64,000 nucleotides of DNA, from contig CM068742.1 in assembly GCA_035084275.1 (NCBI GenBank), forward strand, positions 142,042,001-142,106,000, written 5' to 3'. The DNA is from Hydrolagus colliei (lineage: Eukaryota). A program made the translations under genes and the position numbers. The notes below the pieces were generated by a model, which did not search any database, had not been told where the DNA came from, and was given only the letters and a program-made list of their open reading frames with translations. Below are positions 26,178 through 63,526 of the stretch, in pieces. Each line of letters starts with the position of its first letter. The stretch's first letter is position 1.

Positions 26178-26196
26178 ATGTGGAAATGGATACTGA
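26131..26196 (+). promoter_or_regulatory. Upstream ORF overlapping FGF10 start out of frame ([21 protein letters not shown])
   Basis: ATG at 26131 and in-frame ATG at 26143; open to TGA 26194-26196, past the main ATG at 26178. Confidence 0.6.
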
Positions 26197-26466
26197 CAAA
26201 GAGTGCCTCAGCCCTGTCACACCTGGCCTCTGCCTTTCTCCTTTTCCTCATCTGTTCCTCGTCTGTTGCCCGCAATGACATCAGCAGAGATATGTTGTCT
26301 CCGAATATCACAGGCTCCTCGTCCAGCCTGGGGAGGCATGTGCGCAGCTACAAGTACCTGGAAGGGGATGTGCGATGGAGGAGATTTTTCTCATTCACCA
26401 AATACTTTCTCAAGATCGATAGCAACGGCAAGGTCGGGGGAACAAAGAAGGAAAACTGCCCCTTCA
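26178..26466 (+). CDS. FGF10: Fibroblast growth factor 10, first coding exon (96 codons + 1 nt; signal peptide and start of beta-trefoil)
   Basis: Translates [16 protein letters not shown]...[46 protein letters not shown]. This matches the recalled FGF10 N-terminus MWKWILT and core [18 protein letters not shown]...[13 protein letters not shown] at 26178; donor A|GTAAGT at 26467 is at the conserved FGF exon 1 boundary. Confidence 0.97.
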
Positions 26467-27580
26467 GTAAGTACAGTACATATATATATATTATCTCTCC
26501 ATCTCCCCCCCCCCATTCCCTCTCTCTCTCTATACATATGTGTGTGAAACTTCTACAGGTTTCTTTCTAGTTGCTTGTAAAATAAGTTATTTGTTCTCAG
26601 GTACCATGCAGCAAAAACAAGGGACAACTTCTTTCTCTCTCTCTCTCTCTCCTTTTTTTTTCCACCCCCACTCAAAATGTATGTTCAGTAAATCCAGCTA
26701 TTTCTCACCCCCCCCACCCCCCCCCCACCCATCTCTCTCCTTCCAGGCAGGCTGGTTGTTTCTTTTATTTTAACATATATAATAAATAAATGAAAGTACA
26801 GATGGTTGGCTGTCAGTGGGCTTGTTTGCACTGTGCTCGGATGGAGATCACTGCTGAATTTCATTTCTCATAACGTTTCCATTTCAGATGTAGCACTTTC
26901 ATAACGTTGAAGGAGTTTCTAAGCTCTGCCTGTTCCAACCTTTTATACATACATACATATAGGTGCATATGTATATATAAAACAAATTCATCACCCAGTG
27001 TGCTTAAAATCGTTAAGCATTAGAGTTAAAAGGCTTGGGGTATTCTTTTACGAGTTAAAAGGTCCCGTTCTGTTTCTCATTTCTTTTTTGCTGCTGCATG
27101 TTGCTTTGAGTGATTGCAGTTTAAGAGGGAGTTTTTCAGGCACAGCTACAGCTATTTGTCTTCTCCCATGGCTTCTTGCTAGTAACTTGATACCGTTCCA
27201 TGTCTGTATTGTCAGCAACATATGTGGTACTTTGTGGTATTCTGTGATTTAAAATATATATGTTATTATTATACTATCTATATATATATATATGAGTTCT
27301 TGTCATACCCTTCCTTCTCTGGCGCTTTCAAATTCTCAAACACTGATCAGCCCAATATGTATCCAGAAGCAAAATGTACATCAGTCCAAATTCAGTCAGT
27401 TCCCATCTTATTTGGAAGACAGATTCCCTGTGTGCCAGCTAGTGTTGTTCTCCTTCTGGGTGAGGTTTCTGTTGCAGCAGCGTTGATTAGATTTTTATTC
27501 CAAAAACAAAAATTGCTGTTTTGAGACAAAGTGGGGTAGTTACACAGAAGAGTTTTCCATCAACTTTCCATCAACCTCCG

Positions 27581-30992: not shown

Positions 30993-33137
30993 GAAACGCT
31001 TTGAGACGTCTAGAAGACGTGAAAACCACTATATCAAATGCAAGCATTATTATTAGTATTATTATAGCATCTTTCATGGCAGAACATCCGAAAACTGGGA
31101 TTAGAATGAAAATCTGAAAGTGTGCAGATATACAGAAAGGATATAAATTAAGGCAAGATAGAGTACAAAAAAAAATGTAAATGAATTAGGAAGCATTAAG
31201 TAGTAACTGAAAAATTCTGATTCATTCTCCTGGTTTGCTGGCTATCAGTCTCCAAATAAAACTGGTCATTCACTTTGTGACTGTTTGTAGGACATTGCTG
31301 TGTGGAATTTAGCTGGTGTATTCATGTATAGTTGAGATGTCTCAGCAACGTGGTAAGGTGATATCAAATGTAACGATTATTATTTTGTTGCTGTGTGCAA
31401 AATTGTCTGCTGTTTTTAGTTACAAAAATTGAGTCACATTTTACAGAAAACTAAGTTTAAGACTCTGAATTTGATAACGCACTACACCAAATGCCAGGAT
31501 TATAATATATTTCATGGGAGGGGGTGGACCTTTGTTCACTGCATCTAGCAAGCCAGTCACATTTCAGTTCAGTTTTAGAAAATTGTAGCGAGGATTATTT
31601 TTGCAAGGATAAGATATTTAGTACTCTAACCACATTGCTCTAATCTTAATCCTGTACATTGAGCAGGGTACAATTGATTGCATGTGTTGTAGAGAAATGA
31701 GTAGGAAATAGTTCTGAATTCTATAATAATAAATTTACCATGATACAATAGAAACTGACAGCCTATTCATTGAAAAAAGGTGCAGATTATCAAACAATAA
31801 ATTTACTGGAATGTGTTTCGATCATTTATTTGGCAACATGGATATCTCTGGACACATCAATGACACACTGGCTCAGTGGCTGCATCTCTAACTTGTGGCA
31901 ATGAATATAATGTAACTCTTCACTCTAAACAATTTCACAGTATGCATTACAAGTGATGAATACACAAAAGTGATGCCATGCAAGTAATTTCAATCTGGGT
32001 TTCAGGTTTAAACAGTATTAAACTACTCGTGTTTCCCCATATGATATTTTCTGAACCACCAAAATTATACTAGGGATTGTTCCCCAAGTGCATTACTGCC
32101 TTTGAGTTACGAAGTAGTTTAACTTTATTCTATAATTTGATCGTTTTTTATATAATAATAAATAATTCTTGCATTTGTTATGATGCCTTATTCCCATACT
32201 ATTGACACATATTAAAGCACTTCATAAGATTTTTACTACAAAATGAAGTGACTGTATATTTAATCGGTAGGTATATATATATATATTTGCCCATAAAACA
32301 CAAAGTTACTCCACTTTATAGCATATCCTGTGAAAAGGTTTTTGGGATGTCCACCTGATGTGAAAAGTGCTATACCTCATGTAAGGATTATTATCAGCAT
32401 TATTGAAGATTAATTTAAAATTACACTACTATAAATAAAATTCCAAGTCTAGTTTCAATTGACAAGATAATACAAACTATCAAATGAAAAGCCTTACGGC
32501 ACGAGTCATCTGCTTTGTTCAATACGTTCAGACATATCCATTATAAGTTCAAAATCCAATAAATCTTTCAGAAGATAATGACATAAGACATCCGAATAGT
32601 GTTTTACACATTCCAGCTTAAAACATCAGAGATGACTATAGTTGTTTTGGTACAAGTCAAAACAGCATTGATCAGATACTAAAGATGCACCATTCTTCAA
32701 CATGTTTTGGCAACATCTCTGTAATTATTCATTTTTTCACTCCAGAAGTATAGATTACTACCTTGATATGATCTATTATGAATCCAGTTTCAAAGAAATG
32801 CCGGCCTCGCCCCATTCAATGTCATTCTCAATTATGGAGTTTCAAAGTGTTATAATAATAATAATCTTTGCTTTTGATATATCGTCTTATCACTTCTTTG
32901 AGACGTCTCAAAGTGCTTCAAAGAATTTACAGCAAAGTGAGTTGACTGTATATTTTCTTGGCGAAAATATAACGCAACAGACAATTATGCACAGCAGTGT
33001 GCCACAAGCAGCCTTGGATTAAGTGAAAATGATAACTCCTGCTAATCTTCACCCCACATTTTACATCCCAGCATTGCAAATATACATCTAAGATTGATTA
33101 ATATGCAGAGAACTATGTATTTTAATGTCTGTCACAG

Positions 33138-33853
33138 ACATCTGTGCCTTGACCGGCACCGCTTATTTCCACATGCGCAACATTGCCAGGCTCCGCAACT
33201 ACCTCACCCCCCACGCTGCCGAAACACTCGTGCACGCATACATCACCTCAAGGCTGGACTACGGAAACTCTCTCCTCGTCGGCCTACCCAGCTCCTCCAT
33301 TCATAGGCTGCAGGTCATCCAAAACTCTGCAGCCCATGTACTATCCCGCACCAGCCTCCGTGACCACCTAACCCCCACCCTCGCCCGTCTCCACTGGCTC
33401 CCCATCCCCCAGAGGATCAAGTTCAAGATCCTTGTCCTCGTTTTCAAAGCCTTACACGGCCTTGCCCCGCCCTATCTATCCGATCTACTCTCCCCCTATA
33501 AGCCCACCCGGACCCTCCGTTCAGCAGGACTTGGTTTGCTCCAAGCCCCCCGCCCGAACCGCCCCACAATCGGAGGCCGGGCCTTCAGCTTCTCCGCTCC
33601 CACCCTATGGAATTCCATCCCCCAATCCCTCCGCTTTGTTTCTTCCCTTTCCTCTTTCAAGGCCAGTTTGAAGACTTTCCTTTTCGACCATGCCTTTTGT
33701 TCCCCCCCTAATTTTTCGACCTCCCCCACGTTTTTTACCCCCTCCCGAACACTCCCCTCCCAGCTCGGGTCACACACCTCCTGTGCAGCGCCTTGGGACG
33801 TCCTCCTGACTTGAAAGGCGCTCTATAAGTCTAATTTGTTGTTGTTGTTGTTG
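33138..33853 (+). mobile_element. L2-clade LINE 3' end, young copy
   Basis: ORF with TSRLDYGNSLLVGLP, QNSAA, LHWLP, KFKIL, GGRAFS.APTLWN, FK..LKTFLF; ends in stem-loop plus (TTG)n tail. Confidence 0.95.
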
Positions 33854-35684: not shown

Positions 35685-36246
35685 TGTGAAGTCCTATAGC
35701 TCAGTGGTTAGAGCACTCGCCTTACAAGTGTGAGATCTGTGCTTGAATCTAGGAATCTAGGCATGTCAGGGAAAAACAGGCAAATTTCCTTAGTCAACAA
35801 GCCTAATAATAATCCCTAAAAAAACAATTGGTAATTTCAATCCACGACTGTTTGTCGCTGTGCGCAATTGGCTGCGCTTTTCACCCACAAGTATACAGCC
35901 AATTCACTTTACAGTATACAAAACACAAAATAGTACAGATGCTGGGAATCTGAAACAAAAACCGAAGTTGCTGGGGAAACTCAGCAGGTCAGGCAGCATC
36001 CATGGAGAAAGGAAAAGGAGTCAACGTTTCGGGTCTACAACCCTTCGTCAAACATTCTGACAAAGGGTTGTAGACCCGAAACGTTGACTCGTTTTCCTTT
36101 CTCCATGGATGCTGCCTGACCTGCTGAGTTTCCACAGCAACTTCTGTTTTTGTTTCACTATACAGTATATTCTGTGAAGCGCTCTGAAACATCTAGAAGA
36201 CTTAAAGCGCTATATCAAATGCAAGAATTATTATATTTATTATTAT
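35685..36246 (+). mobile_element. SINE family A, full length, interrupted by a palindromic element
   Basis: Head 35685-35760 and core to 35918; SINE resumes at ~36154 and runs to the (ATT)n tail. Confidence 0.9.
35919..36157. mobile_element. Palindromic (fold-back) non-autonomous element, probably Penelope-like-derived, with degenerate hammerhead cores
   Basis: Arms 35951-36050 and 36058-36157 are 96/100 reverse-complementary. CTGACAA-A-GGGT-loop-ACCC-GAAACGTT motif; 16 bp flanking duplication. Confidence 0.75.
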
Positions 36247-38159
36247 TTCATAGCTGCTGGTAGCTGAAGTCAAAGTTTCTTTGCGAAACAATATAGGAAT
36301 CTCGTGCTGCTTTTCCATTGGCAAAGCTTTCAGGATGAGCTGGGAAGTCGAGTTGTCTATCTAAATCTGACCAGTTCAATCCAACCAAGTTCAGACTGGC
36401 TTGAATTTTGACGTTTATTTCTCCCAATAAAAAAGAAAATTTGGAGCAAAATAGAGGGAGTGATTTTCTTTCTGCTTTCAGAACCACTTTGCATTTTATA
36501 GACTTGGCTCAGCTTGATTCAGCCCAAATGGAGCCGCCTGCTCCCACTGGTCTAAAGCTGTATTTGTATATGCCTATTCCACTGATGCCCATTGTATTTT
36601 TTACACACACAGAAATTCAGTATGTAATTATTAAGTGGATTTGTACAGCACTCAAACATATTTTTGTTGCCTACCTGTTTTCATTCCTAAGCAATCTCCA
36701 CCACCGAATATATGCACTGCTCACTTCAAAGAAGGGCAGGTGCACCTACAGCAGGTCATCATTGTTTTATCTGTGCTTAGGAGTAACCCCTTGAGTGCCT
36801 AGACCACTGGAACAGACAGTGCTGCAGAATGCATGAGAGAACAACACTCTTTGGTTCTATGAATACTTTGTCTTGGAACAGTTAAAATCATCTTATCCCA
36901 AATTAATTTTAAATACGTGTCCTTGAAAACTGCAAAAAACATTTAATAGGAACACATTTTTTCAGTTTATTAGATCTTGGCAGATCTTTTAGACCATTAC
37001 CCTGCCCTTTCACCAACCCAATTAATAATTTAATAAAGATCCCTTGGCACTATTTGAAAAGAGAAGGGAGTTTCCTACATTGTCCTGGTCGATATATCCC
37101 CCAAATAAAAGATTGATCACTCAACTCCATGGCTGTTTGTGGGATATTGCTGTGTGCGATTGACTGCCACGTTTGCCTACAAAGTAGTCACTCCACTTTA
37201 CAGTATATCCTCTAAAGCACTTCAAAACACCTCAATAAGTGATAAGGCTTTATATCAAACACAAGGATTATTATTACTGCACTACCCAAATATTTGTCTA
37301 TTTCTCTTTTAAACACCCCTATTGATTCATCCTCTATAGCTTTCTGGGGCAGACATTTCCCTAACCTCAGTTCTAACTGCTCTAACATTTGTTAAAGTTT
37401 AGAAACGTTAACATAAATGTTCAAGTATGGGGTACTGGAATCAGAATTACACGGGAAGCAATGGTAATAAACATTAGTCCACAGAGAGGAGGTAATATGC
37501 AGCAAGTAATGTACGCATTAACTATTTGAATGCCAAATCTCTGTTTCTGTGATCGCAACAAATATGTGTCATGTGACAGCCACAAATAGTAAATTGCCTA
37601 CGGCTCTGTATAGGAGAGTGAGATGGATAATTAGGAAAGTATGTGTAATCACATAAACATTATTGTTTCCTTGGCATTGCTCTAACAACAGCCTTGGCTT
37701 GGTTTAACATGCTGCTGTTATCTTCAAGTAGGTAAAATCTGGTTAAAGATGCAAACACTCATCCTGATCTGACATTTATCTTCAGCAGTTTCCTTTGATG
37801 CTCCATCAAAATGAAGACAAATGGAAGAGATATGTCTTCTGTGTGGTTAAAGTCTTAATTGCTAGTACAGTATATGTGGTTCTCCCAAGACAGTATTAAT
37901 GCAGCTTTAAAACCTAGATTGCAATTAAATTGTATTTTTCTTGAGCAGTCTACTAAATTATGGTACTGATTGAATGAAAAGGTCATTGAAATGTAGGCAA
38001 CAGAATTTTTTTTAAAAAAACCTGTTGGTGCCATTTGGGTCCAATTAACATATTAGCATTTGATGGATTTGTAAGGTTGAGTAGTGAAAGGGGGTCAGTT
38101 TAAAATTGTTTAAAATTGAAGATAACAGCTGTTGTTCAAGGTGCTGTTCGAGGGTCATC

Positions 38160-38228
38160 CAGCCTATCTGCCTCTTTTAAAATGCTGATTGACCTGCTGT
38201 GATTTTCCAACATTTCTGCTTTTTTTGA
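38160..38228 (+). mobile_element. Degraded partial copy of the palindromic-element arm
   Basis: atgctgattgacctgctgtgattttccaacatttctgcttttt resembles atgctgcctgacctgctgagtttccacagcaacttctgttttt (36109-36151). Confidence 0.55.
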
Positions 38229-39917: not shown

Positions 39918-41424
39918 GCTGACATGAGTGATTCCATAAAGTTCTGGCTACTGCATATTGTTGGTCAAAGTTATTTTCTGCATCTGTTCTGCCTGTTCTG
40001 GCAGTGCTTGTTATTTACATTAGAACCATTGAAATTTACATCCTAAAGAGAAGGTTGGCATTCGGCCCATGGTATTTGTGCTGGCCTTTTTAGGAGCTGC
40101 TCTTTCAGCCCCATTTACCTGCCTTTTCCACATGACAGCTGTAGTTTACTCCTTAGATTTACTATTATATTGGATGCAGAAAACAGAAGTGTTCCTTTGC
40201 CCGAAAACAGTCAAAACCCAGTCTCTTTCATGACCACAAATATATATACAGTCAGTTCACTTTACAGTATATTCTGTGAAGCACTTTGGGACGTCGATAA
40301 GATATGGAAAGTGCTATATCAAATACAAGGATTATTATTATTTATACTTAAATTTTATCCAGTCCACATTCAAGCTACAGAGGCTTGACTTGATTTAGTT
40401 CAATGTTAACTCCTAAAATTTGGATGAGCTCAGATTTCTTGTTCAAATTAATGTATACCCAAGTGGCAAACTAACTGAATTTAAATTGATTCTTTGCTGG
40501 TAAGAGGGGCTGTGATTTTTCATAGCAACATTTATTGTTTGATCTTCTGCACTGAGAACACTTGACCCAGGTCTCCTTTGGGAATTACCAATATTACCCT
40601 GAAGGATATTACCACAACCAACCAAGAACTGGAGGCCATTTTGAGTTGTTCAAGAGAGTTTATTAAATCATTAAAAGTTACAGCTGACAAGCATAAAAAG
40701 GAATGGTCTAAATATGTTTTGTGCTAGGCATCATTACTTGCTACTGACATCTACTTGATATCTCAATTAATACCATTAACTACAGTGATACTTAAATGAT
40801 TAATGGCATGAGACTGATACTGCTTCTATTGTGATCAGACATACTGATATTTCAACTGTTACTGATATAAATTTAATACCTCAGTTAATGTTGAAACTTG
40901 CTACGTTTTTTCAAACAAACCATTGCACATGTTCTACTATCAAAACAAAACAGAAGTTGATCGATAAAAATAGATTTTCTTAAAATGCCAGAAGGTGAAG
41001 AGTTGAGAAACAAAAAGAATTAATGGGAGCTTTTGAAATCACTTGTAGTGATTTAAGTGCTTAATTATTTTAAGTGGTCTGAGAGGCCGACTGGCGTGGA
41101 AGGCACAATGTAAAGGCAAGTTGTTGTTGTTGTTATTGTGGATCAAAGGTGAGAAAGGGGGAAGGAGGAAGCTAAAAACACATACTTGTAGTGAGAGTCA
41201 CTCACTGAAGGGTGTCTGATGTGGGGTTTAAACCCCAAACCTCCTGATTCAGAGGCAGGAGAACTACCAACTGAACCAGACTGACACCTGATTAAAAATA
41301 CGCATCACTGTTATCTGGAGATTGGGGAAAAAATGTGATTCCCACCGACTCAGTACCACAGTCAGAGCAAAACCAATGACAGATATCAAGTGCAGGTATA
41401 CCACTGATTTTAATAATCATGTTA

Positions 41425-41808
41425 ATCCTTGTATTCACCTCAAGGCCCTCCATGACTTTGCGCCCTCCTACCTCTCTGACCTTTCTATGCAATCCCTCCA
41501 CTCAGCAGGCTCCAGCCTGCTCCGTGTCCGTGCCTGGCCCACTTCACCATCAATGGTTGGGCCTTCAGTCTCCCCTCCCCATGCCTCTGCAACTCCATCC
41601 CACAGTTCCTACGCCTCACTCCCTCCCTTGCCTCCTTCAAGGCACACCTTAAGACCCTCCTCTTTGATGACCCTTTTGGCTACCCTCCTACTCTCTCCTC
41701 CCTCCATAATCCCCAACCCTCCACATTCCCCCCTTCTCTTCCCGCTCAAGTCCAAATCCTTGACTGTTCAGCGTCTTGGGACGCTTCACAAATGTAATTT
41801 TGTATTGT
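41425..41808 (+). mobile_element. L2 3' fragment
   Basis: KALHDFAPSYLSDL motif and L2 3'UTR. Confidence 0.8.
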
Positions 41809-41856
41809 ATTTAATACAGCACCTTATCACATTGACACATTGTCTAGATTCTTAAA

Positions 41857-44003
41857 GTGGATTTGACAGTAGACCTACAATGGCAGACATTCAAGGAGAT
41901 AGTGCAAAATTCCCAGCGAGCACGTATTCCTTTGAGGAATAAGAATGCCATGGGAAAGGTGGTCCAGCCGTGGCTAACTAGAGCAGTTAGGGAAACTATA
42001 AAGTCAAAAGAAGAAGCCTATAAAACAGCTAAGATGAGTAGTAAACCCGAGGATTGGGAGAACTTTAGGGAACAGCAAAGGAGAACCAAAAAATTGATCA
42101 AAAGGGAGAAAGTAAAATATGAGGGCAAACTAGCGAGGAACATAAAAACAGACTGCAAGCGTTTTTATAAGTATATAAAAAGAAAAAAGCTATCAAGGGT
42201 GAATGTGGGTCCATTACAGGTAGAATTATACCTGTATAGAATTATAATAGGGGACAACTCTCACCTTAATGGCAGAGTTATTAAACAAGTATTTTTCTAC
42301 TTTCTTCACCGTAGAAGACACTGGAAACATACCAAAAATAGAGGGGAACCAAGAAGACAATGTTAGCGAGCAATTTACGAAGATTAATATTAGTAAAGCA
42401 ATGGCTTTAGGTAAATTGTCGGGTCTTAAAATCGATAAATGGCCTGCATCCTAGAGTTTTAAAGGAGGTGGCTACTGAGATAGTGGATAGAGAAGTCTAT
42501 GATCTTCCAAAATTCTCTGGATACTGGAAAAGTCCCCATTGATTGGAAGATTGCAAACATGACTCCACTATTTAAGAAGGGTAGGAGAGAAAATATAGGA
42601 AACTATAGACCAGTTAGTCTGACATCAGTGGTAGGGAAAATTATTGAGTCCTTAATTAAAGACATCATTATGGGATACCTGGAAAACCACAAAAAAATTA
42701 GGCAGAGCCAACATGGCTTTACAAAAGGGAAACCATGCTTGACTAATCTTTTAGAGATTTTTGAAGATGTATCCAGCAGTTTGGATAGAGGGGAACCAGT
42801 AGATGTGGTATATTTAGATTTTAAGAAGGCGTTTGATAAAGTGCCACACAAAAGGCTGTTGCACAAGATCAAAGCCCACGGGATTAATGGGAACATATTA
42901 ACATGGATAGATGAGTGGCTAACTGGTAGAAAACAGAGAGTAGGGATAAACGGGTCATTCTCAGATTGGCAGGATGTAACTAGTGGAGTGCCACAAGGAT
43001 CAGTGTTTGGGCCTCAGCTATTTACAATTTACATCAATGATCTAGACGAGGACGTTGAATGTAACGTGTCTAAATTTGAGGATTCTCCTACCTAAACTAG
43101 GTAGGAGAGTGAGCTCTGAGGATGATGCAGAAAGATTACAACAAGATATAGATAGGCTAGGGGAGTGGGCAGGTAGGTGGCAGATGGAATTTAATCTGGG
43201 GAAGTGTGAAATTATTCACCTAGGTAACAAATTTAAAAAAAATGATTAATTTCTAGAGGGGAGAGGTTAGATAGTGTTAGTATTCAAAGGGATTTGGGTG
43301 TCCTTGTACACCAGTCTCAAAAAGTTAGTTTGCAGGTGTAGCAAGCAACTAAGAAGGCGAATGTCATGCTAGCGTTCAGTTCAAAAGGTTTAGAGTACAA
43401 GAGTAGGGAAGTCTTGCTGCAACTGTATAGGGCCTTGGTGAGACCACACCTAGAGTATTGTGTGCAGTTTTGGTCTCCTTATTTAAAAAAGGACATACTT
43501 GCCATACTTGCAGTGTAGATTCACTAGGTTAGTTCCTGGGATGAGGGGACTGACCTATGAGGATAGGTTGAATAAACTAGGGCTGTACTCTCTAGAGTAC
43601 AGAAGAATTAGGGGGGATCTTATTGAAACATATAAGATTCTTAAAGGGCTAGATAAAGTAGACACTGAGGGACTGTTTCCCCTGGTAGGAGAATCTATAA
43701 CCAGGGGTCACAGTCTTAAAATGAAGGGTCAGCCTTTTAGAATGGAGTTGAGGAAACATTTCTTCACTCAGAGGGTAGTGAATTTATGGACTTCACTACC
43801 CCAGAAGGCTGTGGATGCTCAGTCCCTGAACATTTTCAAGGCTGAGACTGATAGATTTTTTTTAAATAGAGGGATTAGGGGATATGGGGATGGGGCAGGT
43901 AATTAGAGTAAGGTCAGAAAATCAGCTATGATCTTATTGAATGGCGGGGCAGGCTCGAAGGGCCGACTGGCCTACTCCTGCTCCTAATTCTTATGTTCTT
44001 ATG
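41857..44003 (+). mobile_element. CR1-clade LINE, 5'-truncated (~2.1 kb), frameshifted ORF2 with reverse transcriptase domain
   Basis: Successive ORF pieces contain [60 protein letters not shown] and FFTQRVVNLW. 3'UTR ends in ATTCTTATGTTCTTATG. Confidence 0.95.
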
Positions 44004-48191: not shown

Positions 48192-49107
48192 AGAATAGTA
48201 AATAGTGAGGAGGATAGTAGCCATCTGCAATAGGATATAGACAAATTGGTAAAGTGGGCAGACACATGGCAGATGAAGTTTAATGCAGAGAAGTGTGAGG
48301 TGATGCATTTTGGGAGAAGAAATGAAGGGAGGCAATATAGGCTAGATAGTACAATTTTAAATGGTGTGAAGGAACAGAGAGACCTGGGGATTTGTGTTAG
48401 TGACTCGTTGAAGGTGGCAGGACAGGTAGACAAGGCTGTTAAGAAGGCATATGGGATACTAGGCTTTATAAATAGGGGTATAGAGTACAAACGCCAGGAA
48501 GTGCTGACTAACCTCTATAAGACTTTGGTGAGGCCTCAGCTGGAATACTGTGTTCAATTCTGGTCACCACACTACAGAAAGGATGTGAAGACATTGGAAA
48601 GGGTACAAAGAAGATTTACTAGGATGGTGCCAGGATTGAGGGACTTCAGCTATGAGGAGAGGCTAGATAGGCTAGGGTTATTTTCTCTGGAGCAGAGAAG
48701 ATTGAGGGGAGACCTAATAGAGGTTTATAAGATCATGAGGGGTTTCGACAGGGCAAATAGAGAAAAACTATTTCCACTCATGGGCGAATCTGTGACTCGT
48801 GGTCACAGATTTAAAATAGTTTCAAGGCGAAGTAGAGGGGAGCTGAGGAGAAATGTTTTCACTCAGCAAGTTGTTCGAATCTGGAATGCATTGCCTGAAA
48901 AGGTGGTGGAGGCTGATTCGATAACAACTTTTAAAAGGGAATTAGATCTTTATTTAGGGAGAACAGGGCTATTAGGCTATGGGGAGCGGGCAGGGCAGTG
49001 GGATTGAATCGCTCTTTTTAAAGAGCCGGCACAGACTAGATGGGCCGAATGGCCTCCTTTTGTGCCGTAAAATTCTATGAATCTCTATGAATCTATGAAT
49101 CTATGAA
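48192..49107 (+). mobile_element. CR1-clade LINE 3' portion, young copy (uninterrupted 253 aa ORF2 C-terminus)
   Basis: ORF 48246-49007 KWADTWQMKFNAEKC...LYKTLVRPQLEYCVQFWSP...RLRGDLIEVYKI; tail of ATCTATGA octamer repeats. Confidence 0.95.
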
Positions 49108-62711: not shown

Positions 62712-62786
62712 TAACTCTAACCACTAATCTGCAGGACTCCACAGGTTCGATTCCCAGGTAGGGGAAACGTTAGACAAGCTGTTTAC

Positions 62787-63526
62787 CTAAAACTTTCCTT
62801 CCTCCCCCACATCCGCGCCTTGACCGGCACCGCCTATTTCCATCTGCGCAACATTGCCAGGCTCCGCAACTATCTTACCCCCCGCGCTGCCGAAACACTC
62901 GTGCATGCATACATCACCTCACGGCTGGATTACGGAAATTGTCTCCTAATCGGCCTCCCCAGTTCCTCCATTCATAGGCTGCAGGCCATCCAAAACTCTG
63001 CAGCCCGTGTACTATCCCGCACCCGCCTCCGTGACCACATAACCCCCACCCTCGCCCGTCTCCACTGGCTCCCCATCCTCCAGAGGATCGAATTTAAGAT
63101 CCTCGTCCTCACCTACAAGGCCTTGCACGGCCTTGCCCCATCCTACCTAGCCGATCTACTCTCCCCCTACACGCCCACCCGGACCCTCCGTTCAACAGGG
63201 CTTGGCCTGCTCCAAGCCCCCCGCCCGAACCGCCCCACCATCGGAGGCCGGGCCTTCAGTTTCTCTGCTCCCACCTTATGGAATGCCATCCCTCAATCCC
63301 TCCGTTTCGCCTCTTCCCTTTCCTCTTTCAAGGCCGATTTGAAGACTTTCCTCTTCGATCGTGCCTTTTGTTCCACCCCGAACTCTTTTACCTCCCCTTC
63401 GTGTTTCACCCTTTCCCAAACACTCCCCTCCCAGCTCGGGTCACACGCCTCTTGTTTAGCGCCTTGGGACGTCCTCCCGACGTGAAAGGCGCTATATAAA
63501 TGTAAATTGTTGTTGTTGTTGTTGTT
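62787..63526 (+). mobile_element. L2-clade LINE 3' end, young copy, same subfamily as 33138
   Basis: 221 aa ORF closely similar to the one at 33125-33814; stem-loop gcgccttgggacgtc...gacgtgaaaggcgc plus (TTG)n. Confidence 0.95.

What the first reader, a model, noticed from the sequence alone, without database searches (positions are those of the whole stretch)
35903..36169. Fold-back mini-element with two hammerhead-ribozyme-like cores, inserted in a SINE within FGF10 intron 1
Seen: 100 bp arms with 4 mismatches and a 7 nt loop. They are flanked by TTCACTTTACAGTATA (35903-35918) and TTCACTATACAGTATA (36154-36169), a 16 bp duplication typical of retrotransposition rather than MITE cut-and-paste. 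Each strand reads core-A-GGGT-tgtag-ACCC-GAAA-CGTT: CTGACAA at 36057 (+) and TTGACGA at 36051 (-), each one change from CUGANGA, with a palindromic AACGTT helix III. Established: Penelope-like elements carry minimal type I hammerheads thought to act as dimers and often leave inverted termini. Inference: a recently active non-autonomous PLE-derived or retrozyme-like family, younger than its SINE host. This copy is probably inactive (C3/G8 changes, helix I mostly lost) but would form ~100 bp dsRNA in FGF10 pre-mRNA. An older arm relic lies at ~38160.
Basis: partly seen in the sequence, partly recalled or inferred. Interest (0 to 1): 0.7.

Follow-up and report, generated by a model that had tools for sequence, protein, structure and literature searches.

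The report
Twin-primed Penelope retroelement hairpin stub
This 235-base mirror-image insert in the first intron of a fish FGF10 gene is a stub of a known kind of jumping gene (a Penelope-like retroelement), likely made by copying one RNA onto both cut DNA strands, and its ribozyme motif is real but predicted to be dead in this copy.

Summary
In detail: 100-bp arms, a 16-bp target duplication, a SINE host and FGF10 intron 1. It is not a separate mobile family. Longer copies join the same arm to a Neptune-type Penelope ORF (RT, Cys linker, GIY-YIG), so the hairpin is the shortest case of the known 'inverted pLTR + tail + TSD' layout. In an unbiased sample, 38 of 85 insertions were fold-backs and all 38 junctions differ. 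32 of 38 pair one tailed end with one untailed end (1 short/short, 0 long/long), and duplications peak at 14 bp. Arm heads pile up just 5' of the ribozyme core, where full-length copies also begin, often with an extra G. Best model (inferred): both nicked strands prime on one element RNA at its two start sites, copy to its 5' end and are joined. The family majority has an intact minimal hammerhead; both cores here are damaged and buried in the hairpin. The family is decayed (median 4.4% divergence, no intact ORF seen). This scan noted the same thing before (142 notes, at least 15 genomes, one in this genome).

The parts
26178..26466 (+). FGF10 coding exon 1 (host gene; intron 1 starts at 26467)
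   Evidence: ORF list, Pfam FGF, solved-structure match E 6e-22, donor site; exons 2-3 beyond the window
35691..35918 (+). Host tRNA-headed SINE, 5' part
   Evidence: Rfam tRNA hit E 0.0015 at 35690-35757; many copies in the window
35903..35918 (+). Left target-site duplication (16 bp)
   Evidence: single in other SINE copies
35919..35950 (-). Penelope 'tail' (32 nt; positions about +101 to +133 from hammerhead C3), present only on this end
   Evidence: shared by family copies; continues into the 5' UTR and start codon in full-length copies
35951..36053 (-). Inverted pLTR arm (long, tailed end)
   Evidence: profile E 8e-43
36018..36053 (-). Minimal type I hammerhead motif, C3 changed or lost (core 36051-36045)
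36051..36056 (.). Head-to-head junction of the two arms
   Evidence: differs from copy to copy
36055..36153 (+). Direct pLTR arm (short, untailed end at about +100; 36154-36157 also fit the arm)
   Evidence: profile E 2e-36
36055..36090 (+). Minimal type I hammerhead motif with G8 to A (core 36057-36063, extra A 36064, helix II 36065-36077, predicted cut between 36085 and 36086); helix I cut to 2 bp
   Evidence: sequence, family column counts, coordinates
36154..36169 (+). Right target-site duplication (1 mismatch)
36170..36247 (+). Host SINE, 3' part with AT-rich tail
38180..38225 (+). Old, decayed pLTR relic of a related family
   Evidence: profile search E 5e-4, high bias

Best explanation
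The insert is the shortest form of a Neptune-type Penelope-like retrotransposon insertion, two head-to-head copies of the element's terminal repeat between duplicated target bases, likely formed anew at this site when both nicked DNA strands primed reverse transcription on the element's RNA. SHOWN: arm identity with the pLTR of an RT + GIY-YIG element; one tailed and one untailed end; about 14-bp duplications; unique junctions; arm heads piling up at -8..0 from hammerhead C3, where full-length copies also begin. INFERRED: (1) the endonuclease nicks both strands about 14 nt apart, leaving 3' overhangs; (2) one overhang primes at the +133 start site and the other at the +100 site of the same RNA, using the pLTR copy at the RNA's 5' end; (3) both cDNAs run only 100-135 nt to the RNA's 5' end near -4; (4) their 3' ends are joined through microhomology or short templated inserts. 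The template was uncleaved RNA, since the arms run through the predicted cut. This copy's ribozymes are predicted inactive: each core is damaged and lies inside a 100-bp helix. Nothing indicates a host function.
For: Same arm attached to 3' UTR + GIY-YIG + CX4CxxC linker + RT in longer copies, several with the same inverted arm (L050, L097, L102-L104). Unbiased set: first 100 of 3,445 exact 22-mer matches = 85 insertions, 38 with an inverted arm. 32 of 38 are long/short, 1 short/short, 0 long/long, 5 with an end in neither class; solo copies split 22 long, 24 short, 1 other, so free choice would give half mixed (32 of 33, p 8e-9). Duplication of 9 bp or more in 30 of 38 against 5 of 190 shuffled pairs; mode 14 bp among 82 long/short fold-backs from all loci held. 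38 of 38 junctions distinct. The short arm reaches further head-ward in 11 of 32 and the long arm in 16, so neither arm is always a copy of the other. Arm heads: 51 of 123 at -8..0. The 5' pLTR of full-length copies starts at -2 to -6 in 5 of the 6 that reach the ribozyme, among 30 loci fetched. The non-template base at -5 is G in 50 of the first 100 of 747 matches, 25 expected (p 7e-8). In vitro, an anole PLE protein cuts and extends both strands, starts at two internal sites that bracket the tail, and uses uncleaved RNA (PMC11167929).
Against: All mechanism steps come from dead genomic copies; no experiment was done. 72 of 123 arm heads lie outside the -8..0 pile-up, and one full-length copy (L186) starts at -123. 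The extra G could also come from a one-base snap-back on the helix I complement, or from junction microhomology (seen in 1 of 17). Two RNAs held by an asymmetric dimer would give the same long/short rule. PMC3846280 reads such palindromic junctions as self-priming on an antisense template. PMC8557442 ascribes the tail to endonuclease resolution. RNA reads showed no pile-up of starts at the proposed 5' end, but those libraries came from a related organism and are ill suited to show it. The 38 is approximate: one fold-back (L142) was scored as solo, and two distant pairs (L153, L173) may be separate insertions.
Confidence: 0.8

Rival explanations
1. A non-autonomous fold-back family (retrozyme-like or MITE-like) whose hairpin RNA or DNA is itself the mobile unit.
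For: At least 234 tight fold-backs (control 10). A few junction types recur. Fold-back joints appear in RNA reads of a related organism. Animal retrozymes derive from pLTRs (10.64898/2026.07.22.740005).
Against: 38 of 38 junctions differ in the unbiased set; recurring ones sit at microhomologies. Sizes grade up to full-length elements. Duplications vary from 11 to 17 bp rather than being fixed and short, and the ends are asymmetric. Retrozymes are head-to-tail tandem repeats, which this is not.
Confidence: 0.05
2. Same element, but the hairpin forms by self-priming (snap-back of one cDNA or of an antisense RNA) and the endonuclease then trims the stem to give one long and one short end.
For: Proposed for inverted junctions in PMC3846280; tail ascribed to endonuclease resolution in PMC8557442. 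A staggered cut would also give one long and one short end every time. Templated inserts at junctions show that snap-back happens.
Against: A cut of fixed polarity predicts that the arm reaching further head-ward is always of one class; observed 16 long against 11 short. Kilobase bodies attach to either class. In vitro the tail marks two RT start sites.
Confidence: 0.12
3. Twin priming as above, but the pile-up at -3/-4 marks a stall of reverse transcriptase at hammerhead helix I or a splice junction, not the RNA's capped 5' end.
For: The pile-up coincides with the 5' edge of helix I. In D. virilis Penelope an intron ends there (PMC4209133). The sequence just upstream looks like a splice acceptor. 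Many copies read through.
Against: No conserved matching donor was found in the element's 3' part. The extra G, often preceded by T (13 of 17), is not predicted by snap-back beyond one base. The site fits the YYANWYY initiator pattern (recalled consensus).
Confidence: 0.3

Closest known systems
Endonuclease-bearing Penelope-like insertions with inverted pLTR, one-sided tail and TSD (Pen2a_Av of Adineta vaga, PMC3846280; general scheme in PMC8557442 Fig. 2 legend)
   Same: Inverted 5'-truncated pLTR head-to-head with a direct one, 30-40 bp tail on one end only, target duplication.
   Different: Here the body has shrunk to nothing (two arms only, 235 bp); duplications are about 14 bp rather than 8-10; fold-backs make up about 45% of sampled insertions.
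Neptune clade PLEs (fish; PMC8557442, PMC4209133)
   Same: [quoted passage not shown]
   Different: No tree was built, so Nematis is excluded only by host range (recalled). Whether this family has a Repbase or Dfam name could not be checked.
Minimal type I hammerheads of metazoan PLEs (PMC4209133)
   Same: Core, extra base between 9 and 10.1, G10.1-C11.1, palindromic 15-16 stretch, 4-5 bp helix I. That paper also notes pairs 100-700 bp apart on opposite strands.
   Different: Helix II is 5 bp here; both cores in this copy are damaged; activity untested.
Poseidon of Anolis (PAc) in vitro (PMC11167929)
   Same: Two internal RT start sites bracketing the tail, both strands cut and extended, uncleaved RNA as template.
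   Different: Different clade. In the parts read, the paper does not report that the two sites are paired on the two strands of one insertion; here the start codon lies after the tail, not in helix II.
Animal non-LTR retrozymes (10.64898/2026.07.22.740005)
   Same: Non-coding, pLTR-derived, type I hammerhead.
   Different: Those are head-to-tail tandem repeats with a ribozyme in each unit; this is head-to-head and formed anew each time.
L1 twin-priming inversions (recalled, no call)
   Same: Both target strands prime cDNA; inversion joined by microhomology.
   Different: L1's two pieces do not overlap; here both arms copy the same 100 nt, which needs strand displacement or two RNAs.

Membership tests
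EN+ Penelope-like element (insertion of) | Arm is the pLTR of an element encoding PLE-type RT and C-terminal GIY-YIG | tested here: met
   Pfam RVT_1 E 9e-5 and GIY-YIG E 4e-4, both below curated cut-offs on decayed copies
EN+ Penelope-like element (insertion of) | 30-40 bp tail on one end only | tested here: met
   32 nt at 35919-35950; 32 of 38 fold-backs long/short
EN+ Penelope-like element (insertion of) | Target-site duplication of variable length | tested here: met
   16 bp here; 30 of 38 against 5 of 190 controls; mode 14
EN+ Penelope-like element (insertion of) | Partial tandem pLTR-ORF-pLTR in full-length copies | tested here: met
   5' direct pLTR runs into 5' UTR and start codon
Neptune clade | CX2-5CxxC linker between RT and EN | tested here: met
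   CX4CxxC in translations; criterion from PMC8557442
Neptune clade | Placement in an RT phylogeny | not tested
   no named reference RTs were fetched
Minimal type I hammerhead | Intact core in the family majority, with the extra base after A9 and a palindromic 15-16 stretch | tested here: met
   column counts over 283 arms (set partly chosen by core patterns); 2,459 genome matches to an intact-core pattern, control 0
Minimal type I hammerhead | Intact core in this copy | tested here: not met
   G8 to A on +, C3 changed or lost on -
Minimal type I hammerhead | Helix covariation | tested here: inconclusive
   only one-sided U-G / C-G swaps between subfamilies in helix I and helix II, no two-sided change; Rfam hammerhead models do not hit even intact copies at E 10
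Minimal type I hammerhead | Self-cleavage | not testable with these tools
   no pile-up of read ends; 5 of 123 arm heads at +27..+30, no excess
Non-LTR retrozyme | Head-to-tail tandem units each with a ribozyme | tested here: not met
   head-to-head, unique junctions
MITE / DNA transposon | Symmetric terminal inverted repeats, fixed short TSD, shared internal sequence | tested here: not met
   asymmetric ends, 11-17 bp TSD, variable centre
microRNA precursor | Rfam gathering score and processed small RNA | tested here: not met
   MIR6136 49.7 bits against 99, mir-2131 38.5 against 92; small RNA not examined

The most novel reading that the evidence does not exclude
Penelope elements integrate by obligatory paired priming: an endonuclease-RT dimer nicks both strands about 14 nt apart at loosely symmetric sites and primes each at a different one of two start sites on a single capped RNA that begins at the edge of the hammerhead. 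One rule would then explain inverted pLTRs, the one-sided tail and these hairpin stubs, and the stubs would record the RNA's cap as an extra G.
Probability: 0.45. Interest if true: 0.55.

Novelty: new member of a known kind. Interest (0 to 1): 0.25.

Why it matters
The copy itself is ordinary: one of several thousand decayed pLTR stubs, with no sign of function in FGF10. The family statistics matter more. How Penelope elements make inverted ends and a one-sided tail is still open, and the strict long/short pairing, the 14-bp duplication and the fixed head position give sharp predictions for the existing in vitro system. It also warns that such hairpins will be mis-annotated as MITEs, retrozymes or microRNA precursors.

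Tried and rejected
Rfam: no hammerhead model hit the window copy or three loci with intact cores at E 10; the microRNA hits are far below gathering scores and reflect the hairpin. Sequencing runs: no RNA holder listed. Two single-cell RNA runs of one related organism, laid on a full-length 5' end, covered the pLTR about 300-fold more than the sequence beyond the tail, on both strands, mostly at 85-95% likeness, with a few fold-back joints and no pile-up of starts or ends; this fits passive transcription of stubs and says nothing on cleavage. A-to-G differences were also in the contig runs, so they are not editing evidence. RNA runs had no reads on the unique intron flank, and the one run holding this locus broke at the SINE, so expression and presence/absence of this copy stay untested. 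A subfamily with a different upstream sequence giving a 5-bp helix I was rejected: 30 of 129 such copies examined share no upstream sequence. A spliced short leader found no matching donor. No intact ORF among 144 RT matches, 138 of 734 candidates scored. The paper on dimeric PLE hammerheads (Lunse et al.) is not held and is recalled only. No tree, structure prediction or large protein search was run, as none would change the verdict.

Full report
Numbering. Positions in the arm count from hammerhead C3 = 0 on the element's sense strand; the predicted cut lies between +28 and +29.

1. Observation. The 100-nt arms, four mismatches, 7-nt centre and 16-bp duplication are as described, and the fold is far beyond shuffles (z -24.5). 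The host is a tRNA-headed SINE of about 310 bp that covers about 7% of the window; its other copies carry the 16-mer once. FGF10 exon 1 is at 26178-26466 and exons 2-3 lie about 18-20 kb past the window, so the insert is in intron 1. The relic at 38180-38225 scores E 5e-4. The genome has 1.0 Gb in 532 contigs; an earlier scan note calls it a chimaera-type fish, which I did not test.

2. Family. A DNA search gave 2,595 candidates, 40 scored. An arm 22-mer has 3,445 exact matches, an intact minimal hammerhead pattern 2,459 (controls 0), and a tight fold-back pattern 234 (control 10). The 30 best copies share both ends but differ at the centre. Walking upstream from the ribozyme gave a pyrimidine-rich 3' UTR, a GIY-YIG domain preceded by CX4CxxC, and an RT. 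L122 is full length but decayed, with an ORF of about 900 codons. By the criterion in PMC8557442 (passages read) this is Neptune-type; no tree was made. Several long copies carry the same inverted arm at their 5' end (L050, L097, L102-L104), so the hairpin is the zero-body end of a series.

3. Anatomy in an unbiased sample. All of the first 100 exact 22-mer matches (first 16.4 Mb of C1) were fetched; they collapse to 85 insertions. 38 have an inverted arm. Arm 3' ends fall in two classes, about +85..+108 (59 of 123) and +122..+133 (57 of 123), with 7 others. Fold-backs pair them: 32 long/short, 1 short/short, 0 long/long, 5 with an unclassed end; solos are 22 long, 24 short, 1 other (p 8e-9 for 32 of 33). 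Duplications of 9 bp or more flank 30 of 38 against 5 of 190 mismatched pairs. Over all loci held, 63 of 82 long/short fold-backs have 11-17 bp, mode 14. All 38 junctions differ, and the short arm reaches further head-ward in 11 of 32, the long arm in 16, equal in 5. Scoring limits: L142 was missed as a fold-back, and L153 and L173 may be separate insertions.

4. Where the heads lie. 51 of 123 arm heads are at -8..0 (18 at -3, 9 at -4); 31 lie further upstream and 41 downstream; only 5 are at +27..+30, near the predicted cut. Among 30 loci holding the element's 5' UTR, 6 keep a direct pLTR back to the ribozyme: five start at -2 to -6 and one at -123; the tail runs on into the 5' UTR and start codon. 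Where the template base at -5 is absent, it is G in 50, A in 28 and T in 22 of the first 100 of 747 matches (counted by hand; p 7e-8 against 25%, 4e-4 against one third). It is preceded by T in 13 of 17 examined, with no shared upstream sequence. This resembles copying of a cap followed by untemplated bases (known for L1, recalled), but a one-base snap-back is not excluded.

5. Mechanism. Target-primed reverse transcription from both nicked strands at two start sites of the RNA's 5' pLTR explains the duplication, the long/short rule, the head position and the unique junctions with microhomology or templated inserts. PMC11167929 (parts 1-2 of 4 read) shows cutting and extension of both strands, two internal start sites that bracket the tail, uncleaved RNA as template and a predicted dimer. 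Self-priming on an antisense template (PMC3846280, passages) with a fixed-polarity trim predicts that one end class always reaches further head-ward, which fails 11 to 16.

6. Ribozyme. The family majority has the full minimal type I anatomy of PMC4209133 (parts 1-2 of 4 read): core, extra A after A9, 5-bp helix II, palindromic 15-16 stretch, 4-bp helix I. 98 of 283 arms keep the whole core, in a set partly chosen by core patterns; the losses are mostly at CpG. Subfamily changes are one-sided only, so covariation is inconclusive. In this copy the plus strand, which FGF10 transcribes, has G8 to A and a 2-bp helix I; the minus core lacks C3; both lie in the long helix. A single transcript has only one core in sense, so no dimer can form in cis.

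7. Age. This copy differs from the majority at 6 of 136 and 3 of 103 positions, part of them at the junction; the family median is 4.4% non-CpG. The host SINE is at 7.8% and 50 SINE copies at a median 9.3%. No intact ORF was seen among 144 matches. The family is younger than the SINE but not evidently active.

8. RNA. Reads from a related organism cover the pLTR about 300-fold more than the adjacent sequence, on both strands, with no pile-up of ends. This intron was not covered.

9. Known or new. The layout is described, and opposite-strand hammerhead pairs were noted in 2014. Retrozymes are tandem (10.64898/2026.07.22.740005, parts 1-3 of 5 read). Searches of the held library for Penelope + pLTR + twin priming and for Neptune hairpins in cartilaginous fish returned nothing; some searches were seen as listings and showed no title on this family. 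Also seen as passages: PMC6155905, PMC6765202, PMC2377424. No supplements were opened; those of PMC4209133 and PMC11167929, subscription papers, Repbase and Dfam may hold this family or the pairing rule. Earlier notes of this scan reached the same reading in at least 15 genomes; I saw them after recording my own reading, and they are not independent support.

Verdict: real, a new member of a known kind, interest 0.25; the mechanistic reading has probability 0.45 and interest 0.55 if true.

Noticed in passing
L300 (G000:C1, about 142,120,500-142,120,800): A second, older fold-back of a related subfamily with a 15-bp duplication lies in the same FGF10 intron, beyond the window.
   Followed up: partly
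window 35903-35918; L002, L014, L269: The same position of the SINE was hit independently: 3 of the 30 best copies (this one, L002 in the opposite orientation, L014), and a further copy abuts it. Suggests a favoured target.
   Followed up: partly
63 fold-backs with duplications of 11 bp or more: Flanks are loosely symmetric: A three bases before the duplication in 35 of 63 (T in 5) and T three bases after it in 39 of 63 (A in 2), as a dimeric nuclease would give. The two nearest positions are biased by the calling method.
   Followed up: partly
window 36020-36088: The Rfam MIR6136 consensus resembles the hairpin centre in sequence, with a hammerhead-like order of motifs. That annotated microRNA family may itself be a Penelope fold-back.
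   Followed up: no
L043 and L044: Same insertion with the same flanks in opposite orientation about 0.9 Mb apart on C1: a segmental duplication, not two landings.
   Followed up: no
G000:C38 about 4.15-4.33 Mb; C30 about 3.2-3.75 Mb; C1 about 154.06-154.15 Mb: Clusters of near-identical, regularly spaced RT fragments or pLTRs, probably large tandem duplications of host DNA carrying a copy.
   Followed up: no
L184, L185, L188, L189, L194: Copies with both pLTRs but only 0.3-1.1 kb between them: internally deleted derivatives that could be true non-autonomous forms.
   Followed up: no
window 33098-33814, 41292-43906, 48234-49007, 62721-63485: Decayed LINE-like reverse transcriptase fragments in the same intron (family not tested).
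   Followed up: no
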